Source of the DNA: an uncultured Alphaproteobacteria bacterium
Lineage (GTDB): Bacteria > Pseudomonadota > Alphaproteobacteria > Methylaequorales > Methylaequoraceae
Direction of reading: 5' to 3'
DNA: 64,000 bases
Assembly (NCBI GenBank): GCA_964484795.1
Contig: CAZAFN010000005.1
Span: forward strand, 273 to 64,272
Shown: piece after piece, positions 1-10,370 of the stretch
Position numbering within the stretch: the first letter of the stretch is position 1
Layout of the letters: the number at the start of each line of letters is the position of its first letter
Made by a program: the position numbers and the translations under genes
Notes under the pieces: generated by a model
The model's input: the letters and a program-made list of their open reading frames with translations, nothing else
What the model was told of the DNA's origin: nothing
Databases searched by the model: none

Positions 1-642
1 AATGCTGCATTCATCGCAGATTTTAATAAACATAAGTTTAAAAAAAAATATGATTTAATTTTTTGTTCTCACGTTATAGAACACCAAAGAAATCCAGGAC
101 TCTTTCTTGATAAAATTTTTGATTCTCTCAAAGATGAAGGGGATTTAATTATTTCAGCTCCAAAACATCCTGCGGAAAGATTTGTTGAAGGACATATATT
201 GTCCACTATTTTACCTGTTTTTTTACAGATGTTAATATATGCTGGATTTGATTGTAAAAAAGGTAAAATGATTTCACTTTTGGGTATTGAAAATTCATTT
301 ATTGTAAAAAAGTCTAAAAATTTCTCATTAGAGGAAAGAGATGCGACTGGATATAAATGGACAAAAAATCACCAAGATCGTTCGCCAATAGAATTAAGAG
401 CAGGCTATGAGATTCCAGCTACTACTTTGCATTTAAACAACTGTGAAATATTCAAGATATATGAAAAAGAATATGAAGAAAAAACAAATTCTGCCACTGG
501 ATTAATTTTCGATCCTCCTAAAAATTATAAAAAGAGAAACGTGAGTTTTTTGCTAAATACCTTTAAACAATTTTGTTTATACGATTCAGATAAAAATCTT
601 TTAGCTAATTTCAGTAATGATTATGTGCGTTTTAATATTTAA
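1..642 (+). CDS. Class I SAM-dependent methyltransferase, 5'-truncated by the window edge
   Basis: Frame 1 is open from nt 1 and continuous with the tracked ORF 199..642. The upstream translation reads ...KYDLIFCSHVIEHQRNPGLFLDKIFDSLKDEGDLIISAP, which is the typical post-motif-II/III region of Rossmann-fold methyltransferases. Confidence 0.6.
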   Translation, partial: NAAFIADFNKHKFKKKYDLIFCSHVIEHQRNPGLFLDKIFDSLKDEGDLIISAPKHPAERFVEGHILSTILPVFLQMLIYAGFDCKKGKMISLLGIENSFIVKKSKNFSLEERDATGYKWTKNHQDRSPIELRAGYEIPATTLHLNNCEIFKIYEKEYEEKTNSATGLIFDPPKNYKKRNVSFLLNTFKQFCLYDSDKNLLANFSNDYVRFNI

Positions 643-787
643 AAAAAGTAGTTATTAATCCAGACAACTTAATTAACTTTACTTAAAAACCTAATCCTAC
701 CCACCCCCATTGATTTCTAGGATGATTGCTTTAACATTCATAGGGATAATCTTAGAGATTTTGAAAAAAGAAATTGATACAAATTAA

Positions 788-883
788 AAAACTCAATGTA
801 GTCAAGGGTTCTAGACCTAACGCAACTGATTCAAAATCCGTCGAACTTCGGGACATGTCCATTTGAGTCGGACTAGGGGTGCC
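788..883. repeat. Copy A of a ~96-nt direct repeat; copy B is at 2117..2213, about 85% identical with one 3-nt indel
   Basis: Copy A reads aaactcaatgtagtcaagggttctagacctaacgcaactgattcaaaatccgtcgaacttcgggacatgtccatttgagtcggactaggggtgcc. I aligned the two copies by eye. They share the blocks ACTCAAT...TTGAGT and TAGTC...GACTA, a GATTcaaAATC hairpin, and a uCCG-loop-CGGg hairpin. The only indel falls in the loop of that last hairpin. Confidence 0.8.
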
Positions 884-893
884 ATAAAACTTT

Positions 894-2063
894 TTAGAAT
901 TTAAGATTTAATAATTTTGAAAGTAAATTGTCGTCAGGAATTTTTTTGAGAAAATTAATTATTATATGAATTTTTTCTCTAGAACTTTGAATTTGTTTTA
1001 CAGCCGCAGACAGTACTTCAACAAAATTATTAATACTTAATTTTTTATTTTCCTCGAATAATTGGCATACAAGAAGAAAATTAGTTAATTCTATAAAAAA
1101 TATTACTTCTCTTACAGAATCATAAAATGAATTTTCTGAAATTATAAAATTTTGAATATTTTTAATAAATTCATTTACAAAAAAGTTTTTAAAAATAAAT
1201 TCATTTTCTTTCTTAAAACTGTAAAATTTCGTTCTGTAGATAATGTCAAATTTCTTTTTGAATTCTTTTTCAGACAAATCAAAGTATTTACTTGTAGCTG
1301 CAGACTTTTTACAAATTTCTTGATATCTTGTATTATCTGGGAAATTTGAAAAACAAAGTTTTGCTAAAAAGTTTGTTTGAATTAAAGGAGAATTCTCTTT
1401 AATTTTTTTAACTTCATTTTTTGAGTAAGGTTGAGATGATTTTTTATTTTGAATCATTTTATTATATGAAATTATTATCTGTTTAAGAGCACCATAGAAA
1501 GTAATATTGCTACTTAATAGAAGGAATATGCCTTCAATGTATTTTAAAAATTTCTCTGGTAGATTTTTAGAAATTTCATATGAGTGAATATTATTTGAAT
1601 TAAATACATTAGGTAATTTATTTTTCTTCAATGTATTAATTTTTAAATTTGATTTATTTAAACACAATTTTGCCATTTCAGGACATGACAACTCACCCGC
1701 AATAAAACCAGTTTTATTAAATTTTCTTATTATTCTTGGATAGGTTGAACAACCTACTGATAAATTCTCTTGTCCCAATAAATTGTAAACATTACAAAGC
1801 TTTTTCTCATTTAAAAAGGGACAACAATTGTTATGATTAATTAATCTTCCGTAGGCTATATTTGAATTTAAATTCCTTTTAACTAGATGATTTCGAGAAA
1901 TGGATCTAATTTTTTTGTTAGTGGAATGTTCATATTTTTGATAAGTTTTTTTATCAATTTCTACATTCCAACCTATGCAACAAGAATCAATGCAATCTTC
2001 TCCAACACATTTAAAATCCAGCATATACTCTGGGACAAAAAAACTTGAACTTTCGAGATCCAT
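894..2063 (-). CDS. Cys-rich FliB/YkgJ-family protein (flagellin lysine-N-methylase-like, putative Fe/Zn-chelating domain)
   Basis: The N-terminus carries FKCVGEDCIDSCCIGW, which fits the C-x-G-x2-C-x-D-x-CC-x-GW pattern of the FliB/PF03692-type Cys cluster as I recall it. NCCPFL and GCSTYP motifs lie further in. The ORF is 389 aa and is bracketed by the two direct repeats. Confidence 0.5.
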   Translation of the reverse strand: MDLESSSFFVPEYMLDFKCVGEDCIDSCCIGWNVEIDKKTYQKYEHSTNKKIRSISRNHLVKRNLNSNIAYGRLINHNNCCPFLNEKKLCNVYNLLGQENLSVGCSTYPRIIRKFNKTGFIAGELSCPEMAKLCLNKSNLKINTLKKNKLPNVFNSNNIHSYEISKNLPEKFLKYIEGIFLLLSSNITFYGALKQIIISYNKMIQNKKSSQPYSKNEVKKIKENSPLIQTNFLAKLCFSNFPDNTRYQEICKKSAATSKYFDLSEKEFKKKFDIIYRTKFYSFKKENEFIFKNFFVNEFIKNIQNFIISENSFYDSVREVIFFIELTNFLLVCQLFEENKKLSINNFVEVLSAAVKQIQSSREKIHIIINFLKKIPDDNLLSKLLNLKF

Positions 2064-2116
2064 TTAATATTTTCGCAATATTAATGCCAAAATTTAAATT
2101 AAAAAACACCATTTTA

Positions 2117-2213
2117 GAAACTCAATTTAGTCAAGGGTTTTAGACCAGGCGCAACTGATTCAAAATCCGCCGTTGTCTTTCGGGATATGTCGATTTGAGT
2201 CGGACTAGGGGTA
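2117..2213. repeat. Copy B of the ~96-nt direct repeat, in the same orientation as copy A
   Basis: Copy B reads aaactcaatttagtcaagggttttagaccaggcgcaactgattcaaaatccgccgttgtctttcgggatatgtcgatttgagtcggactaggggtaac. It lies about 50 nt upstream of the minus-strand start of 894..2063 and about 100 nt upstream of the plus-strand start at 2317. Confidence 0.8.
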
Positions 2214-2316
2214 ACACTTTAAAGAAATTTAGAAATTATTTTTTTTGTCACTATTGTCACTGTTAATTACTTAAAATTCATATTAAAATTTATTAAGTAA
2301 TAACTGATTTAATAAT

Positions 2317-4044
2317 ATGTTGGAAAAAGTTAAAAAGTACTATCAATTAAAGAAGTACAATAAGGCAGAGATAATTGCTCGAAGAGAACTTAAAAAATCG
2401 CCAGGAATATTAGAATATTATTATTTACTTGGGCTCATTTACTATTCACTAAATAAATTAAATAATTCTCTTAAATATTTAGATATGTTTCTAGAACATA
2501 ATCCAAATCAAATTGATGCTTTAATTGCCAAGACACATTGCCTTAGGGCAATGAACAAAAATGATGAAGCCATAAACATTCTAAACAAACTATTGAATTT
2601 TGATTTTAAAAAATCTGATATTTTTCTTTTCCTTGGTGAGTGCCACCTTAAAATCTCTCAAGTGGAAAAAGCAAACTCATTTTTCCAAAAAAGTTTAGAA
2701 TTAAATTCTTCTAAGATTAACTTATTAAATGTTTATAAAATTTATAATGAATGTAATTTTCCAGAAAAGGCGTCAAAATTATTAAAAGAATCGTCTTTCT
2801 TTAAAAATGATGACGAAATAACTTTGAAATATTGTAACGATCAAGTAATTCATAATCTCCTTAATTATGAAGAAACTTACACCATTTTATCTAAATTCGT
2901 TCAAGATAAAGTAGTAAGTTCACAAATTTATAATCTTTTAGGTATGTGTTCTTTATTCCTAGGAAAAATTGAAGAAGCAAAAAAAAACTTTTTAGCATCC
3001 GTAGATTTTGATTATACCGATGCAAACCTTTCTTCTTTGTCAACATACATTTCCTCTTCATATTATCAACTTGCTCAAATGAATTATAAATTTGATGAAA
3101 ACACTCTAGACAAAATTAAAAATTTGCTTGGTAAGAATATTAATATCAATAATAAATCTTTATTAGGATATGCATTAAGCAAAATTTATTACAACAATGA
3201 GAACTTTTCAGAAAGTGCGAAGTTTCTTAAAATTTCTAACAAAAACATTTATAAAAACATAATTCTTCCTCGAGGTTGGACATTTGAAGATGAACTAAAG
3301 TTATTTCAAAATTTAAAAAAAATTTATCATTCTATTAAAAAATCAAAAATAATCTCAAATTTTGAAATCACCCCCATATTTATTCTGGGAATGCCTAGGT
3401 CAGGAACAACGTTAGTTGAGAATATTTTAAGTCAATCTGATTGTGTTCAACCGACAGGTGAAAATGGTTTTATTTTAAACCAAATTTCTGAGGAAATTCC
3501 TAACATAAAGAAAAGTAGCATTGAAGATTCCACCTTAATTTCCAAAATAAATAGCGACTTGATTTTTAAATATTTTGATTTTTTATCTCCTAAGAAAAAG
3601 TACTTTACAGATAAAACGCCTTTAAACTTTTTAGCCATAGGCATAATTAAAATACTTATTCCTAACTCCAAAATTATTTATTGCAAAAGAAATATGAATG
3701 ACAATCTCCTATCAATGTTCCAGCAATTTTTTCATTCCTATAGCTTTGATTTTTCGTATGATTTTAAAAGTCTTAAAAAATATTATGACTTACATACTGA
3801 AATTATTAAATTTTGGGACTCTGAAAATATAAGTTTCTTTAAATTAAAATATGAAGATCTAATTACCAATAAACAACAATACATTAACGACTTATGCTCT
3901 TTCATTGGAATAAATTATTCTGATGAAATGTTAGAACCTCATTTGAATAAAAGATATGTCAACACAGCTAGTTCATTTCAGGTAAGACAACCAATTAACT
4001 CTAACTCGGTAAATAAGTGGGACAAATTTAAAGAATTTTTTTGA
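2317..4044 (+). CDS. TPR-repeat protein with a C-terminal sulfotransferase domain
   Basis: The N-terminal ~300 aa are TPR-like (YYLLGLIYY, NPNQIDALIAKTHCL). The C-terminal half carries the PAPS 5'-phosphosulfate-binding motif ILGMPRSGTTLVENIL followed by sulfotransferase-like blocks. Confidence 0.75.
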   Translation: MLEKVKKYYQLKKYNKAEIIARRELKKSPGILEYYYLLGLIYYSLNKLNNSLKYLDMFLEHNPNQIDALIAKTHCLRAMNKNDEAINILNKLLNFDFKKSDIFLFLGECHLKISQVEKANSFFQKSLELNSSKINLLNVYKIYNECNFPEKASKLLKESSFFKNDDEITLKYCNDQVIHNLLNYEETYTILSKFVQDKVVSSQIYNLLGMCSLFLGKIEEAKKNFLASVDFDYTDANLSSLSTYISSSYYQLAQMNYKFDENTLDKIKNLLGKNININNKSLLGYALSKIYYNNENFSESAKFLKISNKNIYKNIILPRGWTFEDELKLFQNLKKIYHSIKKSKIISNFEITPIFILGMPRSGTTLVENILSQSDCVQPTGENGFILNQISEEIPNIKKSSIEDSTLISKINSDLIFKYFDFLSPKKKYFTDKTPLNFLAIGIIKILIPNSKIIYCKRNMNDNLLSMFQQFFHSYSFDFSYDFKSLKKYYDLHTEIIKFWDSENISFFKLKYEDLITNKQQYINDLCSFIGINYSDEMLEPHLNKRYVNTASSFQVRQPINSNSVNKWDKFKEFF

Positions 4045-4126
4045 CAACAATCTAATTGGCAATTCATAATTTTATTCTAAGATCGCAAAAGTACAGACCA
4101 GAAAATCAAAGTTACAAGCAAATTTA

Positions 4127-4978
4127 TTATTTTTTCAATAACGTTGAATTTTTCTTTCTAAGTGCGTCTATCAATGGATCTATTTCTCCATTTTTTATGA
4201 ATCCACTAAATTCTGATTTCCTAGTTGCCACCTCACTTATTGAACCATTTAGCAGTACATCAAAAACCTTCCACTTTCCGTCTTTAACAGTTAACAGGTA
4301 ATCGATTGAAACTTTCTCATTTTCTTTAAGAACTAAATTCGTTTTAACCTTCATATAGTTTTTTCCAAATTTTTTACTTTCTCCGCTTTCAAAGTCTGGT
4401 TGTTTGATCTTAATAAATCTTTTGATGTAACTTTTCGCAATGAACTCCTCAAAAACGAGTAACATTTCTTTTTGTTTTTCTATTCTGATGTTTTCCCAAA
4501 CATTTCCAATGATCATTGTAGTCATTTTTTCAACGTCTAAGGTACTTCTAATTAACTGCACAATTTCTTTGTAATTGCTAAAGTTTTGCAGACTTATTTT
4601 TTTCAACCCGGCATGTAGTTCCAAGATTGTATTAATTGCATCTTCCTTAATGACTTGAGCCTTTGGATTCAAATCACTAGGTTTCTTTGCAACCGGTTTG
4701 ATGGTAGGTAAATCCAGTTTAGGTTCTATTTTGGAAATTTCTTTAGAAGCAGGATCTACAATTTCTGGTTTTACATAATTTGTTGATTTGTCTGCATGAA
4801 TTATCGAATCAGTGTGTTCTTCAACCGAGGAGGTTTCTTCTGGGCCTTCATTCTCCTCTTTGTTAATTACGTTGTAGCAAGTTTTAATAGCAACTAACAT
4901 CAGTATGAATAAAAAGACTATTAGATAATAATTTCTTTTTTTAAATTGTGAAAAAAAACTAAATACTAATTTCTTCAT
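4127..4978 (-). CDS. MlaC/Ttg2D-family phospholipid-binding periplasmic protein with a ~120-aa Pro/Lys-rich N-terminal extension and a membrane anchor
   Basis: The C-terminal ~170 aa (LQNFSNYKEIVQLIRSTLDVEKMTTMIIGNVWENI...SIDYLLTVKDGKWKVFDVLLNGSISEVATRKSEF) matches the MlaC toluene-tolerance family signature. There is an N-terminal TM helix and a PKLDLPTIKPVAKKPSDLNPK linker. Confidence 0.65.
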   Translation of the reverse strand: MKKLVFSFFSQFKKRNYYLIVFLFILMLVAIKTCYNVINKEENEGPEETSSVEEHTDSIIHADKSTNYVKPEIVDPASKEISKIEPKLDLPTIKPVAKKPSDLNPKAQVIKEDAINTILELHAGLKKISLQNFSNYKEIVQLIRSTLDVEKMTTMIIGNVWENIRIEKQKEMLLVFEEFIAKSYIKRFIKIKQPDFESGESKKFGKNYMKVKTNLVLKENEKVSIDYLLTVKDGKWKVFDVLLNGSISEVATRKSEFSGFIKNGEIDPLIDALRKKNSTLLKK

Positions 4979-5001
4979 GATTGATCTTTATAATTCGAAA
5001 T

Positions 5002-6540
5002 TCATTCTTCATAAATTACTAGCAAATTAATTGAAAGTAAGATTAAAAAATATGCCACTGGCGTTAGATATCTGAAGATTTTGTCTAAACTTTCCACTAG
5101 CCTTCTCTTTTTAGAAATCAATGCACCTACAGCAACTGTCTGAATTACGGGAATACCTGAAAAAAAATATGACACTAGAATGGTTATATCCATTAATGTC
5201 AAATAAGATAATCGAGGCAAGTCTTTATCAACAACAAAATTATAAGCTATCAAAGACAGCAAACAAACTATACTAACTGTTATTCGACTCTCAATTTCCC
5301 TTGGGTTGATCCAAAACGTTGACCAGGAAATTATTAAAATCAGTAGAATCGGAAGAAAAATTTTTGTTAGATAATAAGTTGATTCTCTCTTAATCGCTAT
5401 AGCTACATATTTATCAAAAATATATACGTAGTTTATTAATTCTACATTTCTTTGATCCATCGAAGTAACTCTTACATATTTCCATTCTGGATTAGGTGGA
5501 AGGTCCTTAACACTTTCAAAAAACCTTTTATATGCAAAATCAGGAAAAATTATATCTTCAAAAACTAATCCTTCTTCTCCTGGAATGGGTTCAAATCCAG
5601 ATTCAAGAATAAATTCTATATACTGCTCATCAAAAGGAAACTTTTTGAATCTGAAATCATTCTTTAAAATTCCTCTTGAACTTTGAATGTTTTGAATGAA
5701 AGAAGAACCAAATATTTTTTCAAATTTATTTTCGTCTTCATAACTTCCAGGTTGAGAATAATCGAGTCTAACATCATTAGAATAAACCTCTGTAGAAGAA
5801 AAATTTCTAATTCCTACCCGTGGGTGGTATAGATTGTTTTCTTTAAAAAAAGAAAGAGGTATTTCACAATAATAATTGTAATTTGTGGCATCTTCATAAT
5901 TTATTTCTTTATATTCAGTCCAAACTTCATGCATTATTTTTGTAATTCTGTCATCGATCCAATTTTGGTGCATGTTAATTGCAAGGTCTACCTGGGATTC
6001 TCTTGATTTGATTTGATTAATTGTCTTAACTATGATTTCAACATTAACCGGATTATCGGAGTACCTTTTTTTTTTTAAATATATGTGTTCATCCCCTATG
6101 ACTAATTTTACGTCTTCCTTCTCTGATAATTCATAAAATATTTCTTCATCTGACATTTCAGCAGTATGTTTTGAATTTATGGACTTTATTGGTTCTAGCA
6201 ATACATCAGCACTTATGTCTTTTTCAAGTAATTCTTCGTAGAGATCTGGATGTATTTTTCCTAAAATTGCTTCATTGTTTTCTGAACGTTCAAGAGATGA
6301 AACTTCAAACTCAAGGTCATCAATATCATCAAATTTTCTTTCATCTTTTACTTTGAAAGGTGTGTAATATTCTAATTCGATTCCATGATATTCCCAAAAA
6401 CTGTCATTAGGACTGTCTAAGTCAGAATTCTGTTTCAATTTTTCTTCAAGAATTTCACATTCATCAAAACCATCATAAGCTAGAAGATTAAGCTTAAAAA
6501 AAACAATTAGAAGAAGTAATAAACTTTTTTTAATCATCAA
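5002..6540 (-). CDS. Prokaryotic pentameric ligand-gated ion channel (Cys-loop receptor family, GLIC/ELIC-like) with an extra ~150-aa N-terminal periplasmic domain
   Basis: After a signal peptide comes the start of the extracellular domain, PVNVEIIVKTINQIKSRESQVDLAINMHQNWIDDRI. The Cys-less Cys-loop KKFPFDEQYIEFILES aligns with GLIC RRYPFDSQTLHIYLIVRS. M1 reads YYLTKIFLPILLILIISWSTFW, against GLIC YFSYIPNIILPMLFILFISWTAFW. M2 (RITVSIVCLLSLIAYNFVVDKDLP), M3 and a C-terminal M4 are also present. Confidence 0.85.
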   Translation of the reverse strand: MMIKKSLLLLLIVFFKLNLLAYDGFDECEILEEKLKQNSDLDSPNDSFWEYHGIELEYYTPFKVKDERKFDDIDDLEFEVSSLERSENNEAILGKIHPDLYEELLEKDISADVLLEPIKSINSKHTAEMSDEEIFYELSEKEDVKLVIGDEHIYLKKKRYSDNPVNVEIIVKTINQIKSRESQVDLAINMHQNWIDDRITKIMHEVWTEYKEINYEDATNYNYYCEIPLSFFKENNLYHPRVGIRNFSSTEVYSNDVRLDYSQPGSYEDENKFEKIFGSSFIQNIQSSRGILKNDFRFKKFPFDEQYIEFILESGFEPIPGEEGLVFEDIIFPDFAYKRFFESVKDLPPNPEWKYVRVTSMDQRNVELINYVYIFDKYVAIAIKRESTYYLTKIFLPILLILIISWSTFWINPREIESRITVSIVCLLSLIAYNFVVDKDLPRLSYLTLMDITILVSYFFSGIPVIQTVAVGALISKKRRLVESLDKIFRYLTPVAYFLILLSINLLVIYEE

Positions 6541-7195
6541 CTTCTGATTGTAAAAGTTTATATTTCTTTAATAAATTCATAGAAAATATTATCAAATAAG
6601 CTAGAAGGATTAAATATAAAATACTCTGTATAGATACTAAAAAATTATAGAGCGAGTGAAATGCGATTGGGATTAGTAAGCTTAAAAACAAACTCTTTTT
6701 ATTGTTGTTAAATTTATAATCACTAAAATAAAAACCCATAATAACCCCACAAAAACAATGCAAAGGTATTGCTGAAAATGATCTTAATGCAGCCGTTATA
6801 TAGGAATCATAAACATTCTGTGTATTAAAAAAAACATACTCAAAATTTTCCAATGTAGCAAATCCAAGTGATAGGCATACTCCGTAGACTATTCCATCCA
6901 TCGGCTCATCGTAGTGTTTGTGATTATTTATATAAAATATAAAAAATAAAAACTTAAGAGTTTCTTCTGTGAAACCTGCCAAATATGCCTGCTCTTCAAA
7001 ATCTTGAATAACAAAAATATTTAAGTATCCAGCTGGAAAGCAAATCAAGATTCCCAAAAGAAAAATCTTTAAGATTGATGAAGCTGGTTCTCTAAACTTG
7101 TCTGATTTAACAAAAAAAATTAATAGGAAACATGACGGTAAAATGGTCATTAGAAGCAAATCAAAGTTTTCAGTCATAAATTTAATGTTTAACAA
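6530..7195 (-). CDS. PrsW-family intramembrane glutamic-type protease (M82-like)
   Basis: The protein is polytopic. It carries the PrsW motifs EETLK (EExxK), DGIVYGVCLSLGFATLENFEY and AIPLHCFCGVIMG (HxxxxxxG). Confidence 0.6.
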   Translation of the reverse strand: MLNIKFMTENFDLLLMTILPSCFLLIFFVKSDKFREPASSILKIFLLGILICFPAGYLNIFVIQDFEEQAYLAGFTEETLKFLFFIFYINNHKHYDEPMDGIVYGVCLSLGFATLENFEYVFFNTQNVYDSYITAALRSFSAIPLHCFCGVIMGFYFSDYKFNNNKKSLFLSLLIPIAFHSLYNFLVSIQSILYLILLAYLIIFSMNLLKKYKLLQSEVDD

Positions 7196-7224
7196 AAAGG
7201 TTATACAAAACTATACTATATCCT

Positions 7225-7812
7225 GTGAAATTTATTAATTCCATTAAGTATAGTTTTCAAAATGCATTTTCTTTGGATGGAAGAGCAAACAGATATGAAC
7301 TTTGGGTTTTTTACTTATTTTGTTTTAGTTTAGCATTTATAGGTGTCCTTCTTGATATCATCTTATTTGGGGAGGAGGAATTTGGACCTTTTTATGTCAT
7401 AGCTTTAGTTTTGACCATAATACCATCAATATGTCTCCAGGTAAGAAGAATTCATGACATCGGTTTTCACGGAGCAGCTTGGTTTCTTTTATTTATTCCT
7501 TTTGTAAACATTGTAGCTTTTTTCATATTCAATTTAAAGCAAGGCGATAAGTCAAACAACAAATTTGGCCCCCCACCGGTAGACCTTTATAAGAGTAATT
7601 CTATTGCACTTGAAAAATCGATTGGGAAAATGTCAAGCAAAGTTGGTAAAAATGTAACCCAGATTTATAAAGACCTAAAAGGAAAAAAACTGAACCCAGA
7701 AGATATAGAGAATGAACTTAAAAAAGTAGAAGAAATGTTCAAAAGAAATGTTATCTCTAAAAATGAAAGAGAAGATTTAAGAAAGAAAATCCTTGGGATT
7801 TTGAAAAAATAG
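7225..7812 (+). CDS. DUF805-family inner membrane protein
   Basis: It has the motifs GRANRYELWVFYLF...RRIHDIGFHGAAWFLLFIPFVNIVAFFIF...NKFGPPP, which are diagnostic of DUF805 (YhaH-like). Confidence 0.7.
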   Translation: MKFINSIKYSFQNAFSLDGRANRYELWVFYLFCFSLAFIGVLLDIILFGEEEFGPFYVIALVLTIIPSICLQVRRIHDIGFHGAAWFLLFIPFVNIVAFFIFNLKQGDKSNNKFGPPPVDLYKSNSIALEKSIGKMSSKVGKNVTQIYKDLKGKKLNPEDIENELKKVEEMFKRNVISKNEREDLRKKILGILKK

Positions 7813-7857
7813 ATTTTGGCAACTCATTAAAACAGCTAATTTCAAATTACCTTATAA

Positions 7858-7887
7858 TTGACAATTTTAATTTTAAATATCTATAAT
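7858..7887 (+). promoter_or_regulatory. Sigma70-type promoter with perfect consensus boxes, predicted to give a leaderless transcript of 7893..8525
   Basis: TTGACA is at 7858-7863, followed by an 18-nt spacer and TATAAT at 7882-7887. The ATG at 7893 is only 5 nt after the -10 box, so the TSS is expected at or within about 1 nt of the A of the ATG. There is no SD. Confidence 0.5.
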
Positions 7888-7892
7888 TTTGT

Positions 7893-8525
7893 ATGTCTAA
7901 TTGGGAAGTTGTTGATGCACGAAAATGGCAAGACAAATACAAGTCTGACGATTACAAACCTGAATTAATCTTTAAGGATTCTAATTCCAAGGAAAGCGCT
8001 TTGTTTTCTCTTAGTTTCTTCTTAATGATTATGGCATCTGAAATATTATTCAATCAACCATTTAGTAAAAAGATTGGAATGGTCCACAACCATTTTTACA
8101 AAAAATTGTTCAAAAAAAAATATGAAAAAATTGAAAGAGTTGAAACCAATTCATTTGCATTCAGCTTGTTTTTAATTTTGCACAAACTTTTAAAAGAAGA
8201 AAATACTCTTACTGATCGCATTAAAGACATTATCATCTATGCGACTTGTCATTGGTCCAACATACTGAAGTTGAATGAAAGTGAGCATCAGAAAAAATTG
8301 GCGATTTTATTTGCAATGTGGAATGAGAACAAGGATTTGGTTTTATCTTATAGGAATGATTCAATCATTGATCTAATTTTTTCTTTGTATAAAAGTTTTG
8401 AAGTAGGAATAAGCAATAAGAAGATAATTGAGAAAAATATTGCCGCACTTGATTTCTCAGTTAGCAAAGCTAACAAAGAATTTAGATTTGATGTGTTGAA
8501 TGAATTTAGGAAGAAAAGGTTTTAA
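7893..8525 (+). CDS. Hypothetical protein
   Basis: 210-aa ORF with no motif I recognise. Reasonable coding look; it follows the consensus promoter. Confidence 0.5.
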   Translation: MSNWEVVDARKWQDKYKSDDYKPELIFKDSNSKESALFSLSFFLMIMASEILFNQPFSKKIGMVHNHFYKKLFKKKYEKIERVETNSFAFSLFLILHKLLKEENTLTDRIKDIIIYATCHWSNILKLNESEHQKKLAILFAMWNENKDLVLSYRNDSIIDLIFSLYKSFEVGISNKKIIEKNIAALDFSVSKANKEFRFDVLNEFRKKRF

Positions 8526-8553
8526 AACATTTTTTTTTCTAAAATCATAGAAA

Positions 8554-9480
8554 CTAATTGACTTTTTTCCATTCCATTTTATTTGAGAAATTTATTTGAT
8601 TGTGCAAGAATTCTGCTTGACAGGTAGTGTCAATTCCATCGACAAAAGAAAACACGATACCGTTTGAAAAACTTTTAGCAACTGCTTTAACTTTTTCATT
8701 TGAATCATATACCAATGCCGAATCAAATGGATATTTTTTAATTTCATATCCATTTTTGTATTTGCCTGCTATCTGTTCAATATTGTTTTTCTCACTTTCT
8801 CGGTTAAAAAATAATTGAGCTATAGTTCCGTGGTTTTTCAATGACAATGTTCCAACAAAATATGGCGTTACATTCTCTAATTTGCTTGAATTAACTATTT
8901 CCATGTATTCTTCTACATCTCTTAATAAAAGTACAAACCTGTAATTAGTTGCTCCTAGATTATCAAGACATTCTTTTAAATTATTAATGTAACTAGTGCT
9001 TATTCCGAATCTTTTTGAAAAATCTTCTTTAGATGGTGCAAATTTCACAAGATTCTCCTGAGAGTTTGAAATTACAAACGTCTTTTGGATAAAATCATCC
9101 CTTATAAAATCTAAAAAACGTTTCCATAAATATGCATACTTATCTTTGAAATTTTGGTAGGTAGATTGATCAATCAATAATTCTTCGCCACTCTTCTCAA
9201 AATCATGAAAAAGCCATATTCCATTAATGCAAACAGCGTCTTTTTGTGAAATAGATTTCTTTAATAGACTCAATTCATTAACAGATGGTTGAAAAGCCTT
9301 TCCATCGTCATTTTTAAGTGACCTTAGTACAAATTCTTTCGTCACAACATTCCAATCATATGGCATGGAAACATCATTGGTATTTTCAAGAATCTCAATG
9401 GTAAACTTAGACTGGCATGAAAAACCAAGCGAAATGTAATTGTGTGGCAAATTATTCTTTATCATATAAATATATACCAA
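8554..9480 (-). CDS. DUF1796-like protein (putative papain-like fold), hypothetical
   Basis: The N-terminus HNYISLGFSCQSKFTIE...SMPYDWNVV resembles the ISLGxxC...PFDW opening of DUF1796 proteins, which are often found in surface-glycan loci. Similarity judged from memory only. Confidence 0.4.
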   Translation of the reverse strand: MVYIYMIKNNLPHNYISLGFSCQSKFTIEILENTNDVSMPYDWNVVTKEFVLRSLKNDDGKAFQPSVNELSLLKKSISQKDAVCINGIWLFHDFEKSGEELLIDQSTYQNFKDKYAYLWKRFLDFIRDDFIQKTFVISNSQENLVKFAPSKEDFSKRFGISTSYINNLKECLDNLGATNYRFVLLLRDVEEYMEIVNSSKLENVTPYFVGTLSLKNHGTIAQLFFNRESEKNNIEQIAGKYKNGYEIKKYPFDSALVYDSNEKVKAVAKSFSNGIVFSFVDGIDTTCQAEFLHNQINFSNKMEWKKVN

Positions 9481-9660
9481 AAGTATGATTTAAATATTCT
9501 TATTATACTTTTAAGTGCAATATTCGTGACAAATGTAGAGTTTTTAAAGTCTAATGCCTTACAACAATTTTTTTTATTAATCGAATGTTAGGCATACCAT
9601 TTATTTTATTTTTTGATAGTATTAACTCTCGTAATTAATTAACAGTGGAGGGTTGATTTA

Positions 9661-9792
9661 ATGAATGAAGATAATGAATGCGGATGTGGCCGATCTCCTA
9701 CAGGAAAGTGCATTGGATGGCATCTTTTGAGTGAGGAAGAATATAAAACAAAATTGGCTAATTACGAAAACAAAAAAGATTCAGAAAAATAG
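9661..9792 (+). CDS. Small Cys-containing protein, 43 aa (MNEDNECGCGRSPTGKCIGWHLLSEEEYKTKLANYENKKDSEK)
   Basis: The ATG is preceded by a strong SD (agtGGAGGgttgatttaATG), which is unusual in this genome. It lies in a 460-bp spacer and is below the ORF-track size cutoff. Confidence 0.35.
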   Translation: MNEDNECGCGRSPTGKCIGWHLLSEEEYKTKLANYENKKDSEK

Positions 9793-9944
9793 TTTTGAAT
9801 TTTATTGTTTAAACATCATTTAAAAAAACAAGAAAAATTACCCCAAAGACGATCAAAAACTGAATGATATTAAAAATCATTATCATTGACAAATCTAATT
9901 TAATAACTACATTTTTTATATAGTTAATTACAAGGAAAGTGTTT

Positions 9945-10370
9945 ATGAAAAGTTTTTTTTATTGTTTGTTTGTTTTATTCTTTGTGACCAGTGTAAACTC
10001 CGCTGACTTACAGATTGAAATGTTGAATAAGAGGGATGATGGTGCTCGAATGGTGTATAGTCAAGAAATAGCTAAAATTGATGCTGGGCAGACCATTGAA
10101 TGGGTCGCCAAAGACAAGGGGCATAATGTTGAAATGATAGTTGGTCCTGATGGTGCTGACTTGCCAAAAAAAAGTAAGTTAAGCAAAAATTTCTCCATGA
10201 AATTTGATGCTCCCGGAATTTATTTGTACAAGTGTACCCCTCATGTAGGACTAGGAATGATAGGTATTGTAGTCGTTGGAGGAGATAGTTCAAATAAAGA
10301 ATCCGTTGCCAAAGCAAAGTTATCTGGAAAATCAAAAAAAAAGAGAAACAAACTACTAGAAGGAATTTAG
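9945..10370 (+). CDS. Pseudoazurin / plastocyanin-like type-1 copper protein (cupredoxin)
   Basis: Signal peptide, then GHNVE...YLYKCTPHVGLGMIGIVVVG with the Cys-Thr-Pro-His...Met copper ligands. The true start is probably ATG 9945 with an AAGGAAAG SD; the track's 9939 is a GTG. Confidence 0.8.
   Translation: MKSFFYCLFVLFFVTSVNSADLQIEMLNKRDDGARMVYSQEIAKIDAGQTIEWVAKDKGHNVEMIVGPDGADLPKKSKLSKNFSMKFDAPGIYLYKCTPHVGLGMIGIVVVGGDSSNKESVAKAKLSGKSKKKRNKLLEGI

What the first reader, a model, noticed from the sequence alone, without database searches (positions are those of the whole stretch)
5002..7812. Pentameric ligand-gated ion channel (Cys-loop receptor homolog) with an extra N-terminal domain, clustered with a PrsW-like protease and a DUF805 protein
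ORF 5002..6540 aligns by eye with GLIC/ELIC across the whole channel. It has the extracellular-domain start (V.V...I..I...ES.VDL..N.HQ.W.D.RI), the FPFDEQ Cys-loop core, the M1 LPILLILIISWSTFW and a polar M2 with a ring of Ser/Thr. It also carries an extra ~150-aa acidic N-terminal periplasmic domain. pLGICs are rare and patchy in bacteria, and I do not recall one being described in a SAR11-type genome. Its ligand would define a chemosensory input in an organism with very few signal-transduction genes. It shares the minus strand and a 11-nt overlap with a PrsW-type intramembrane protease. A divergent DUF805 membrane protein follows. This looks like a compact envelope signalling/processing module sitting in an accessory region.
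Basis: partly seen in the sequence, partly recalled or inferred. Interest (0 to 1): 0.85.

Follow-up and report, generated by a model that had tools for sequence, protein, structure and literature searches.

The report
PDZ-capped bacterial ion channel paired with PrsW
This gene encodes a bacterial relative of animal neurotransmitter-gated ion channels that carries an inserted PDZ (peptide-binding type) domain and almost always sits directly behind a membrane protease gene; the pairing recurs across abundant ocean bacteria and does not appear in the literature I could search.

Summary
ORF 5002..6540(-) is a genuine pentameric ligand-gated ion channel (pLGIC). Pfam Neur_chan_memb scores above its cut-off. 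The AlphaFold model (pLDDT 85) superposes on sTeLIC, ELIC, DeCLIC and GABA-A receptors (TM 0.72-0.81). The FPFD Pro-loop, pre-M1 Arg, 9' Leu and a -2' Glu (cation-type filter) are all present.

The PrsW link is real. In 55 of 62 loci from SAR11, SAR86 and other marine proteobacteria, a PrsW gene lies within four genes. In 39 it is directly upstream on the same strand, usually overlapping. The link is one-sided, because most related PrsW genes have no channel beside them. DUF805 is only an occasional neighbour of PrsW.

The claim that pLGICs are unknown in SAR11 is wrong. Jaiteh 2016 names Pelagibacter, and this family is common in Pelagibacteraceae genomes.

Among near-identical strains, the channel's periplasmic part carries two dimorphic patches with dN far above dS, while the pore is invariant.

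Verdict: a new variant of a known kind. The PDZ insertion and the protease partnership appear undescribed. The ligand and the role of PrsW remain inferred.

The parts
5002..6540 (-). pLGIC gene (512 aa from TTG 6540; more likely 511 aa from ATG 6537; stop TGA 5002-5004)
   Evidence: Searches give the ORF and its ends. Pfam PF02932 scores above its cut-off. PDB relatives include sTeLIC and DeCLIC. AF2 model pLDDT 85.4, pTM 0.79. Foldseek TM 0.72-0.81 to pLGIC structures.
6475..6540 (-). Signal peptide (residues 1-22, MMIKKSLLLLLIVFFKLNLLA|YDG)
   Evidence: Read from the sequence: a hydrophobic N-terminus followed by an A-x-A-like site. The cleavage site is inferred, not predicted with a dedicated tool.
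6415..6471 (-). N-terminal alpha1 helix carrying Cys28 (nearly invariant in the family)
   Evidence: Helix 27-37 in the model. C28 is conserved in at least 90% of sequences and C225 is invariant. Both Cys are retained in the short paralogs that lack the PDZ. A C28-C225 disulfide is inferred.
6070..6408 (-). PDZ-fold domain (residues ~45-157) inserted between alpha1 and beta1; carboxylate-loop-like HGI (Gly53 nearly invariant)
6289..6372 (-). Hypervariable patch 1 (codons 56-83 from the ATG): the loop after the HGI strand of the PDZ
   Evidence: Two alleles reassort among near-identical contigs, and almost all changes are nonsynonymous. The region has low pLDDT.
6066..6076 (-). A11 homopolymer (LKKKK) at the PDZ/ECD junction
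   Evidence: Contigs L064 and L066 are one A short of the in-frame length, and the gene is called there as 168 + 323 aa.
5383..6069 (-). Extracellular (periplasmic) beta-sandwich domain, residues 158-386, with family-specific helices at 197-218 and 334-345
   Evidence: Secondary structure of the model. Foldseek alignments of about 360 columns to pLGIC structures. Neur_chan_LBD is significant in 16 of 53 family members.
5623..5661 (-). Pro-loop (Cys-loop equivalent without cysteines), FKKFPFDEQ
   Evidence: P302, F303 and D304 are invariant; F301 and Q306 are conserved in at least 90%. No Cys flanks the motif (read).
5452..5580 (-). Hypervariable patch 2 (codons 320-362 from the ATG): end of beta8, loop-F helix, beta9
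   Evidence: 17 nucleotide differences between the two alleles, nearly all nonsynonymous. Each allele is seen in at least 4 independent assemblies.
5005..5382 (-). Transmembrane domain M1-M4 (residues 387-511); M2 at 5227-5295 with -2' Glu417, 0' Arg419, 2' Thr421, 9' Leu428
   Evidence: Helices 387-410, 416-438, 449-474 and 479-511. Invariant columns. Gap-free alignment of M2 to sTeLIC and DeCLIC. No amino-acid polymorphism among sister contigs.
6530..7177 (-). PrsW-family intramembrane protease (215 aa from the ATG; longest ORF runs to 7195), overlapping the channel start
   Evidence: Pfam PF13367 1.2e-29. NCBIfam NF033739 2.1e-37, below the equivalog cut-off. The EExxK, SLGFAxxEN, PxH and HxxYN motifs are invariant in 20-55 homologs. 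It lies upstream of the channel in 39 of 62 loci.
7225..7812 (+). DUF805 membrane protein, divergent from PrsW; an occasional neighbour, not a core part
   Evidence: Pfam PF05656 9.5e-21. Present in 15 of 64 genome loci and 17 of 80 PrsW metagenome loci, in variable position and strand.
4127..4978 (-). MlaC/HpnM-like lipid-binding protein with an N-terminal membrane anchor and linker, 23 nt downstream of the channel on the same strand; a lineage-specific third gene of the probable operon
   Evidence: Pfam MlaC 1.2e-28. NCBIfam HpnM 1.9e-28. The 23-nt gap is read. The same arrangement occurs only in the sister contigs. No terminator-like site lies between the genes.

Best explanation
**Shown**
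- The ORF encodes an intact member of the pentameric ligand-gated ion channel superfamily (Pro-loop type). Its pore is under purifying selection.
- It belongs to a large, diverse family from marine metagenomes and marine bacterial genomes.
- Family members carry a PDZ-fold domain inserted between a conserved Cys-bearing N-terminal helix and strand beta1. This puts the PDZ before beta1, which is the apical end of the domain in solved pLGIC structures.
- The gene starts inside the stop region of an upstream PrsW-type intramembrane protease gene with intact catalytic motifs. This gene order recurs in SAR11, SAR86 and other marine proteobacteria.

**Inferred**
- The protein assembles as a pentamer in the inner membrane.
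- The -2' Glu / 0' Arg / 2' Thr / 9' Leu pore makes it a cation channel, so opening would depolarise or otherwise shift the membrane potential of a very small cell.
- Gating is driven by a periplasmic cue read at two places. One is the subunit-interface pocket, probably for a small amine-like ligand as in ELIC, suggested by the periplasmic amine oxidase next to the PDZ-less paralogs. The other is the PDZ cap, which retains the x-Phi-G-Phi carboxylate-binding loop and most likely binds a peptide or protein C-terminus and modulates gating allosterically, as the DeCLIC N-terminal domain does.
- PrsW, made from the same message, most likely acts on the channel. It may trim or release a periplasmic part of it, or create or remove the C-terminal ligand seen by the PDZ. 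By analogy, PrsW makes the site-1 cut in RsiW, and PrsW domains are predicted to process adjacent cargo in polymorphic toxins.
For: **Channel identity**
- Pfam, NCBIfam and PDB sequence hits.
- AF2 model with pLDDT 85.4 and Foldseek TM 0.72-0.81 over about 360 columns.
- Invariant Pro-loop PFD, pre-M1 R385, M1 P397, 2' T421 and 9' L428; -2' E417 and 0' R419 conserved in at least 90% of sequences.

**The gene is functional**
- Codons 386-511 have 0 nonsynonymous and 3 synonymous polymorphisms among sister contigs.

**PDZ**
- Gly53 of the HGI / IGI / FGF loop is nearly invariant.
- The insertion topology is shown by alignment with the roughly 400-aa paralogs.

**PrsW coupling**
- 39 of 62 loci are directly adjacent on the same strand, with gaps of -74 to +30 nt. 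Another 16 have PrsW within 1-4 genes. Six of the 7 loci without PrsW are truncated close upstream of the channel.
- The pairing holds in loci labelled SAR86 and Gammaproteobacteria (L005, L006, L014) as well as Pelagibacteraceae.
- PrsW catalytic motifs are invariant.

**Ligand surfaces and the small-amine hint**
- Ligand-facing surfaces are the parts that diversify. Two patches have pN/pS up to about 5, against 0.08-0.38 in neighbouring genes.
- A TAT-signal FAD amine oxidase lies directly upstream of the short paralog in 14 loci.

**Precedents**
- N-terminal domains modulate gating in DeCLIC (PMC12664993).
- PrsW acts as a processing peptidase for adjacent modules (PMC3482391).
Against: - No ligand, conductance, oligomeric state or cleavage has been tested.
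- The window protein's own PDZ is degenerate in sequence. It has no Pfam PDZ hit, HGI instead of Phi-G-Phi, and LEPIKSINS instead of GDxIxxING.
- PrsW does not need the channel. Only about 21 of 80 related PrsW loci have one. LGIC-linked and LGIC-less PrsW genes are interleaved (50-89% identity). The same lysS-PrsW-[LGIC]-mdh backbone occurs with and without the channel. Adjacency could therefore reflect an insertion site plus operon piggy-backing.
- Paralogs without a PDZ also sit in PrsW-headed clusters, so the PDZ is not required for the association.
- Promoter and terminator scans are no better than chance.
Confidence: 0.55

Rival explanations
1. The channel and PrsW are functionally independent. 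PrsW is a vertically inherited core gene at the end of its transcription unit. The slot behind it is a tolerated insertion point where accessory envelope genes (the channel among them) are gained and lost, borrowing PrsW's promoter in a streamlined genome. On this reading the channel is simply a small-molecule or pH-gated cation channel like ELIC, GLIC or sTeLIC.
For: - 33 PrsW loci with at least 1.5 kb of downstream sequence have no channel, and 48 of 68 loci with at least 400 nt downstream have none.
- Identical backbones occur with and without the channel.
- PrsW genes with and without a channel are interleaved by identity.
- Several unrelated envelope genes (DUF805, amine oxidase, x24/m13, c3/m1b, m4/m7) also recur beside PrsW.
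Against: - From the channel's side the association is almost absolute: 55 of 62 loci, with a single clear exception, L045.
- It holds across different classes of bacteria and different flanking genes, including this window, where the context (gltBD, cupredoxin, sulfotransferase) differs from every other locus.
- The start usually overlaps the PrsW stop, which suggests translational coupling.
Confidence: 0.3
2. A conflict or defence module. The periplasmic PDZ/ECD surfaces detect a foreign protein or peptide (phage component, bacteriocin), and channel opening collapses the membrane potential in an abortive response, with the CPBP/Abi-related PrsW as processing partner.
For: - Diversifying, dimorphic, reassorting patches are confined to periplasmic recognition surfaces.
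- Presence/absence polymorphism.
- A frameshift-prone A11 tract that could switch the gene off.
- PrsW domains are used in polymorphic toxin systems (PMC3482391).
- The channel sits in a low-GC stretch with genes of unknown function.
Against: - No PADLOC hit for any of six local proteins.
- No relatives on viral contigs.
- No toxin, immunity or nuclease genes nearby.
- Neighbours in other genomes are housekeeping genes such as lysS, mdh and lipoamide dehydrogenase.
- The association with an amine oxidase points to metabolite sensing.
Confidence: 0.1
3. The gene is decaying in this lineage. The high dN/dS, the degenerate PDZ motifs, the loss of the C-terminal tail seen in relatives and the frameshifted copies would then reflect relaxed selection.
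For: - pN/pS of 0.9-5 for the whole gene.
- L064 and L066 are frameshifted.
- The nearest homolog outside the sister contigs is only about 32-35% identical.
Against: - Substitutions are clustered in two patches rather than spread evenly.
- The 125-codon TMD has no amino-acid change.
- All family-invariant residues are kept.
- The ORF is intact in the window and in L001, L002 and L065, and no disruption is seen in the partial copies L067, L068 and L069.
Confidence: 0.04

Closest known systems
sTeLIC (PDB 6FL9), pLGIC of a Tevnia endosymbiont
   Same: It is the best solved-structure relative by sequence (E=1e-14 over M1-M4 and the last ECD strands) and by fold (TM 0.76-0.81). It shares the Pro-loop type, the short M3-M4 loop, the EEW motif before beta9 and the LPR/KLxYxT M2-M3 motif.
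   Different: sTeLIC has no N-terminal extra domain. No protease partner is reported for it (my knowledge). Sequence identity is only about 20%.
DeCLIC (PDB 6V4A/9FTG), Desulfofustis pLGIC with an N-terminal domain
   Same: It is a prokaryotic pLGIC with an additional periplasmic domain preceding the canonical ECD, and that domain modulates gating (PMC12664993, PMC9897478). It is the second-best PDB hit (4e-13).
   Different: The DeCLIC NTD consists of two lobes that the paper likens to Ca-binding domains of Tk-SP and collagenase. Here it is a single PDZ fold inserted after a disulfide-tethered helix. According to PMC9897478, DeCLIC was then the only NTD-bearing pLGIC with a solved structure.
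ELIC / GLIC
   Same: The overall fold is the same. The pore pattern resembles GLIC, with -2' Glu, 2' Thr and 13' Ala. An amine-gated reading like ELIC's is suggested by the amine oxidase neighbour of the paralogs (the ELIC agonists are from my knowledge).
   Different: The ECD carries two helical insertions (197-218 and 334-345) plus the PDZ. The ligand is unknown.
Bacterial pLGIC fusions listed by Tasneem et al. 2005 (PBP-I, MCP-N + Cache; operons with PBP-II or Cache)
   Same: The principle is the same: a sensor domain is added N-terminal to the LBD, and there are conserved sensor-encoding neighbours (PMC549065).
   Different: That survey reports no PDZ fusion and no protease neighbour. Text searches for pLGIC with PrsW, or with PDZ in prokaryotes, found nothing relevant.
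PrsW of Bacillus subtilis (site-1 protease of anti-sigma-W RsiW) and PrsW domains of polymorphic toxins
   Same: The family is the same (Pfam 1.2e-29, NCBIfam 2e-37) and the motifs are conserved. The polarity also matches: the protease is encoded first and the variable partner second (PMC3482391).
   Different: It scores below NCBIfam's equivalog cut-off. There is no RsiW-like anti-sigma gene here. The partner is a separate, translationally coupled channel gene rather than a fused toxin.
PDZ sensors of envelope proteolysis (DegS, RseP/S2P, Ctp/Tsp)
   Different: Here the PDZ is attached to an ion channel, not to a protease. Binding has not been tested.

Membership tests
Pentameric ligand-gated ion channel (Cys-loop/Pro-loop) superfamily | Four-helix transmembrane domain M1-M4 matching Neur_chan_memb | tested here: met
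   PF02932 E=1.9e-9, 38.5 bits against a cut-off of 28.1. Four helices at 387-511. NCBIfam LGIC_1 4.5e-19 and TIGR00860 1.3e-18, both below their full-length cut-offs.
Pentameric ligand-gated ion channel (Cys-loop/Pro-loop) superfamily | Extracellular ten-strand beta-sandwich ligand-binding domain | tested here: met
   By sequence this protein is below threshold (PF02931 E=0.026, 14.4 bits against 26), although 16 of 53 family members hit it (best 2.2e-7). By structure the model aligns over about 360 columns, ECD plus TMD, to sTeLIC, ELIC and GABA-A with TM 0.72-0.81.
Pentameric ligand-gated ion channel (Cys-loop/Pro-loop) superfamily | Cys-/Pro-loop FPFD motif, pre-M1 Arg, M1 Pro, 9' Leu in M2 | tested here: met
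   P302, F303, D304, R385, P397 and L428 are invariant across 53 family members. No flanking cysteines, so it is the prokaryotic Pro-loop type.
Pentameric ligand-gated ion channel (Cys-loop/Pro-loop) superfamily | Homopentameric assembly and ligand-gated conductance | not testable with these tools
   Only monomer models could be built. No electrophysiology.
Cation-selective pLGIC subclass | Acidic residue at -1'/-2' before M2 followed by a basic 0' residue (E-x-R/K) | tested here: met
   IE(417)S R(419) aligns without gaps to the sTeLIC and DeCLIC M2. E417 and R419 are conserved in at least 90% of sequences. The rule itself comes from the literature (PMC549065). Selectivity has not been measured.
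PDZ domain | Sequence-profile match to PDZ | tested here: inconclusive
   The window protein has no Pfam PDZ hit. The family profile that includes it hits many PDZ chains in the PDB (best 6.8e-8), and 9 of 53 members hit PF00595.
PDZ domain | PDZ fold | tested here: met
PDZ domain | Carboxylate-binding loop x-Phi-G-Phi and peptide binding | tested here: inconclusive
   The Gly (G53) is nearly invariant. Most members have IGI, FGF or LGF, while the window protein has HGI. Binding has not been tested.
PrsW family intramembrane protease | Match to the family model and the conserved EExxK/R, FxxxH-type His and HxxxN motifs | tested here: met
   PF13367 103.7 bits against a cut-off of 23.5. E71, E72, K75, H140, H174 and N178 are invariant in 20 homologs. 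NF033739 scores 128.9 bits, below its 225-bit equivalog cut-off, so it is a family member but not an ortholog of B. subtilis PrsW.
PrsW family intramembrane protease | Site-1 cleavage of an anti-sigma factor (RsiW-type pathway) | tested here: not met
   No anti-sigma or ECF sigma gene was found among the Pfam-scanned neighbours in the window or among the recurrent gene clusters of 140 related loci that were annotated. The substrate here must be something else.
DUF805 | Match to PF05656 | tested here: met
   E=9.5e-21, 74.8 bits against a cut-off of 25.7. Its function is unknown, and it is not a constant neighbour.
Known anti-phage defence systems (PADLOC) | Any component matching a PADLOC model | tested here: not met
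   No hit for six local proteins at E<=0.01.

The most novel reading that the evidence does not exclude
The PDZ cap makes this the first pentameric ligand-gated channel gated or licensed by a protein C-terminus. The co-translated PrsW protease would create or destroy that ligand, or clip the channel itself. This would be a proteolysis-coupled electrical envelope sensor in the ocean's most abundant bacteria. Its recognition surfaces evolve under diversifying selection, possibly because the cue comes from a phage or a competitor.
Probability: 0.2. Interest if true: 0.85.

Novelty: new variant of a known kind. Interest (0 to 1): 0.62.

Why it matters
Prokaryotic pLGICs are the structural models for human neurotransmitter receptors, yet their physiological roles in bacteria are essentially unknown. 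According to a 2022 paper, only one channel with an accessory N-terminal domain (DeCLIC) had then been solved.

This finding describes a large natural family (902 cluster representatives at E<=1e-10) with three features:
- a well-understood module, a PDZ, placed before beta1 of the receptor domain;
- a conserved genetic partner, PrsW, that gives a concrete, testable hypothesis for regulation;
- natural allelic series in the recognition surfaces.

For marine microbiology, it points to a fast electrical or chemical sensing device in SAR11- and SAR86-type cells, which have very few classical signal-transduction genes (my knowledge). It also points to a possible link with amine metabolism through the oxidase-linked paralogs. 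If the PrsW link is functional, it would give a PrsW-family protease a substrate class outside sigma-factor signalling.

Tried and rejected
1. **Diversity-generating retroelement as the source of the hypervariable patches.** Rejected: the substitutions are not restricted to adenines, and no reverse transcriptase was seen among the neighbouring genes scanned.
2. **Known defence system.** No PADLOC hit.
3. **Phage-borne gene.** No relative in the viral contigs.
4. **Organism of origin.** This could not be identified.
   - The exact channel sequence is not on record.
   - The sister contigs are metagenome scaffolds without taxonomy.
   - The flanks of the 61 genome loci share no housekeeping gene with the window.
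   - Cluster look-ups returned no organism names.
   - Rfam found only one tRNA in the window.
5. **AFDB fold search** for full-length PDZ-channel architectures with organism names. The library was not available.
6. **Solved structure of a PrsW relative.** None at E<=1.
7. **Promoter and terminator scans** are no better than shuffled sequence.
8. **C28-C225 distance in the model.** Coordinates are not exposed, so the disulfide rests on conservation alone.
9. **RPAP3_C hit in residues 77-141** (E=8.6e-4, below its cut-off). Dismissed as a weak match within the PDZ region.

Full report
**1. The observation**

- The minus-strand ORF 5002..6540 (512 aa from TTG) is present. An ATG one codon downstream (6537) gives the 511-aa product called in sister contigs.
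- PrsW ends at 6530, so the two genes overlap by 11 nt from the TTG or 8 nt from the ATG (ATGATTAA).
- Pfam gives Neur_chan_memb E=1.9e-9 (38.5 bits, cut-off 28.1). Neur_chan_LBD reaches only E=0.026, below its cut-off.
- The neighbours score PrsW-protease 1.2e-29, DUF805 9.5e-21 and, downstream, MlaC 1.2e-28.
- phmmer against PDB sequences finds sTeLIC (1e-14), DeCLIC (4e-13), ELIC, GluCl, GABA-A and glycine receptors.

**2. Fold**

- An AlphaFold2 model built on 53 family sequences has mean pLDDT 85.4 and pTM 0.79. It shows a beta-rich domain followed by four long helices at 387-410, 416-438, 449-474 and 479-511.
- Foldseek against the PDB returns only pLGICs at the top (E about 1e-17 to 1e-18). 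TM-scores normalised to the target are 0.72-0.81 over about 360 columns.

**3. Channel features**

- Across the family alignment these residues are invariant: the Pro-loop P302-F303-D304, W353, pre-M1 R385, M1 P397, T421, L428 and D438. E417, R419, V425 and C426 are conserved in at least 90% of sequences.
- M2 aligns without gaps to sTeLIC and DeCLIC. That gives -2' Glu, 0' Arg, 2' Thr, 6' Val, 9' Leu, 13' Ala and 16' Phe.
- The E-x-R signature is the one the literature associates with cation channels (PMC549065). Selectivity itself is inferred.
- No cysteines flank the FPFD motif, so this is the prokaryotic Pro-loop type.

**4. The extra domain is a PDZ fold, and it is an insertion**

- Nine of 53 family members hit Pfam PDZ.
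- A profile of the N-terminal region (27 sequences) hits many PDZ chains in the PDB. The best are the PDZ tandem of an Aquifex site-2 protease (6.8e-8) and PSD-95 (1e-7), followed by DegP, HtrA1 and syntrophin.
- The nearly invariant Gly53 lies in an HGI / IGI / FGF motif, which corresponds to the PDZ carboxylate-binding loop.
- In the window protein the sequence motifs are degenerate (HGI; LEPIKSINS in place of GDxIxxING). For this protein, PDZ membership therefore rests on the fold and the family profile.
- Alignment with paralogs of about 400 aa that lack the domain shows two things. The paralogs keep the N-terminal helix with its conserved Cys (EECDNILE against DECEILEE) and the invariant beta3 Cys (C225). 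The PDZ is therefore inserted between helix alpha1 and beta1.
- A C28-C225 disulfide tethering the helix is inferred from conservation only.

**5. How common the family is, and in which organisms**

- The word-indexed search found one 95% identical protein. Identity then drops to about 32% for a family of 470-560-aa proteins from TARA, GOS and other marine data.
- The exhaustive search of 1.84 billion representatives found 5005 hits at E<=1e-3, 902 at E<=1e-10 and 78 at E<=1e-30.
- A scan of one genome per GTDB species returned 61 loci:
  - about 50 are labelled Pelagibacteraceae or Pelagibacter, including records named for HIMB4, HIMB1456 and AAA795-J21;
  - the rest are SAR86, Gammaproteobacteria MAGs and "uncultured Alphaproteobacteria" single-cell genomes.
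- Jaiteh et al. 2016 already name Pelagibacter among microbes with pLGICs (PMC4795631). The statement that none has been described in SAR11 is therefore incorrect.
- I could not establish the taxon of the window itself. Its channel and PrsW are closest to those of SAGs labelled Alphaproteobacteria, Pelagibacteraceae and SAR86.

**6. The PrsW link, seen from the channel**

I called ORFs in 62 loci (the window plus the genome loci) and clustered them.

| Arrangement | Loci |
|---|---|
| PrsW immediately upstream of the channel, same strand, gap -74 to +30 nt (longest-ORF starts) | 39 |
| PrsW one to four genes away | 16 |
| No PrsW in the locus | 7 |

- In six of the seven loci without PrsW, the channel lies within about 850 nt of the contig end. 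L045 is the one clear exception.
- The pairing also holds in the SAR86 and gammaproteobacterial loci (L005, L006, L014).
- The PrsW homologs keep the EExxK, EPxDGxVYG, SLGFAxxEN, PxH and HxxYN motifs, so they look catalytically competent.
- NCBIfam calls the family "glutamic-type intramembrane protease PrsW". This protein scores below the equivalog cut-off.

**7. The PrsW link, seen from PrsW**

- A metagenome scan with a PrsW alignment gave 80 loci at 42-53% identity to the window's PrsW. Only about 21 have a channel next to PrsW.
- 48 of the 68 loci with at least 400 nt of downstream sequence have none. That includes 33 loci with at least 1.5 kb downstream.
- The same backbone occurs with the channel (lysS-PrsW-LGIC-<m5-<mdh; L081, L127) and without it (L082, L090, L102, L104, L108, L114 and others).
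- PrsW genes with and without a channel are interleaved by identity.
- Other envelope genes recur beside PrsW:
  - DUF805;
  - an FAD amine oxidase with a TAT-like signal;
  - two families of periplasmic proteins.
- In 14 genome loci the amine oxidase directly precedes the short, PDZ-less channel paralog.
- The dependence is therefore one-sided. The channel nearly always comes with PrsW, whereas PrsW is a core gene that often stands alone.

**8. DUF805 and the MlaC-like gene**

- DUF805 occurs in 15 of 64 genome loci and 17 of 80 PrsW loci, on either strand and at varying positions. It is an occasional neighbour of PrsW, not a fixed part of the module.
- The MlaC/HpnM-like gene (4127..4978) starts 23 nt after the channel stop on the same strand. 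That arrangement is seen only in the window and its sister contigs.
- In some SAR11 genomes an unrelated MlaC-MlaA pair lies convergent to the channel.

**9. Microdiversity (found in passing)**

- Eight contigs from independent assemblies are 98.4-99.7% identical to the window over up to 10 kb.
- Neighbouring genes have pN/pS of 0-0.38 wherever synonymous differences exist. Against L065 they show 0-1 differences in more than 2000 codons.
- Against the same contig the channel gene has 21 differences, 20 nonsynonymous and 1 synonymous (pN/pS about 5). Against L068 the ratio is 1.6 and against L001 it is 0.9.
- The differences form two dimorphic patches that reassort among contigs:
  - codons 56-83, in the low-confidence loop after the HGI strand of the PDZ;
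  - codons 320-362, covering the end of beta8, the loop-F helix and beta9.
- Codons 386-511 (the pore domain) have no amino-acid change.
- The changes are not adenine-specific, so they do not look like a diversity-generating retroelement.
- This pattern argues against decay and for diversifying or balancing selection on periplasmic recognition surfaces.
- An A11 tract at 6066..6076 is one base short of the in-frame length in L064 and L066, which splits the gene there. This could be phase variation or an assembly error.

**10. What it most likely does**

Shown:
- an intact pLGIC with a conserved pore;
- a PDZ-fold insertion;
- conserved operon-like coupling to a PrsW protease with intact motifs;
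- rapidly diversifying periplasmic surfaces.

Inferred:
- a cation-selective pentamer in the inner membrane, opened by a periplasmic cue;
- a small ligand at the subunit interface, with amines as the best guess given the oxidase-linked paralogs;
- a PDZ cap that binds a peptide or protein C-terminus and tunes gating, as the DeCLIC N-terminal domain does (PMC12664993, PMC9897478);
- PrsW acting on the channel or on the PDZ ligand. The analogies are its site-1 cut of RsiW and its predicted role as a processing peptidase encoded ahead of variable cargo (PMC3482391).

The main rival is that PrsW merely provides a landing site and a promoter. The one-sided association cannot exclude this.

**11. 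Novelty**

- Known accessory domains of bacterial pLGICs are PBP-I, MCP-N plus Cache, and the DeCLIC NTD. Known operon partners are PBP-II and Cache proteins (PMC549065).
- Full-text searches found no paper that combines pLGIC with PrsW.
- None combines prokaryotic pLGICs with PDZ beyond pharmacology compendia.
- None links PrsW or neurotransmitter-gated channels with SAR11 in a relevant way.
- The channel itself is a new member of a known superfamily. The PDZ insertion and the protease partnership make it a new variant of a known kind.
- The searchable library lacks most subscription-journal papers, so prior description cannot be ruled out.

Noticed in passing
window 5452..5580 and 6289..6372 (minus strand), compared with L001, L002, L064-L069: There are two dimorphic, reassorting patches in the channel's periplasmic part, and almost all substitutions in them are nonsynonymous. 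Against L065 the channel gene has 20 nonsynonymous and 1 synonymous change, while the neighbouring genes are identical or differ at 0-1 sites. The pore domain has no amino-acid change.
   Followed up: yes
window 6066..6076 (minus strand A11): A homopolymer tract sits inside the channel gene at the PDZ/ECD junction. Contigs L064 and L066 are one A short of the in-frame length, and the gene is called there as two fragments (168 + 323 aa). This could be phase variation or an assembly error.
   Followed up: partly
L008, L010, L012, L013, L015-L017, L020, L021, L027, L030, L031, L033, L036: Many SAR11 genomes carry a second, roughly 400-aa channel paralog without the PDZ (Neur_chan_LBD 1.4e-11). 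It is directly preceded by an FAD amine oxidase of about 445 aa with a TAT-like signal. The typical order is PrsW - [long channel] - DUF805 - amine oxidase - short channel. This hints at amine sensing.
   Followed up: partly
L081, L127, L091 versus L082, L090, L102, L104, L108, L114: The channel shows presence/absence polymorphism in an otherwise identical backbone (lysS - PrsW - [channel] - <m5 - <malate dehydrogenase). PrsW is a core gene and the channel is accessory.
   Followed up: yes
alignment A1, columns 701-755 (C-termini): Most family members have a tail of 10-20 residues after M4, ending in hydrophobic residues (for example NTIKSFSF, NTISAFKFMS, YTNAMISWTALK). In pLGICs this tail lies on the periplasmic side. 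The window protein lacks it and ends ...LLVIYEE. It may be a PDZ or PrsW target.
   Followed up: no
window 4127..4978 (-): This MlaC/HpnM-like lipid-binding protein has an extra N-terminal region of about 130 aa (a membrane anchor plus a Pro/Lys/Glu-rich linker). It starts 23 nt after the channel stop, so it probably belongs to the same operon in this lineage only.
   Followed up: partly
window 1..10000: This stretch has lower GC (26-30%, against 31-37% in gltBD) and holds several unusual genes:
- a TPR-sulfotransferase (2317..4044);
- a Cys-rich 389-aa protein annotated FliB_C in a sister contig (894..2063);
- two unassigned ORFs (7893..8525 and 8554..9480);
- a cupredoxin (9939..10370).
This is consistent with a variable region. 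The same context was found only in near-identical contigs.
   Followed up: partly
L018 2426..3478, L023 4835.., L083 992..2059: A 350-aa protein lies between PrsW and a short channel paralog in L018 and L023, and directly after PrsW with no channel in L083. It has a periplasmic N-terminal domain and a C-terminal membrane domain related to a 107-aa membrane protein (c3) that recurs upstream of PrsW. It has no Pfam assignment.
   Followed up: no
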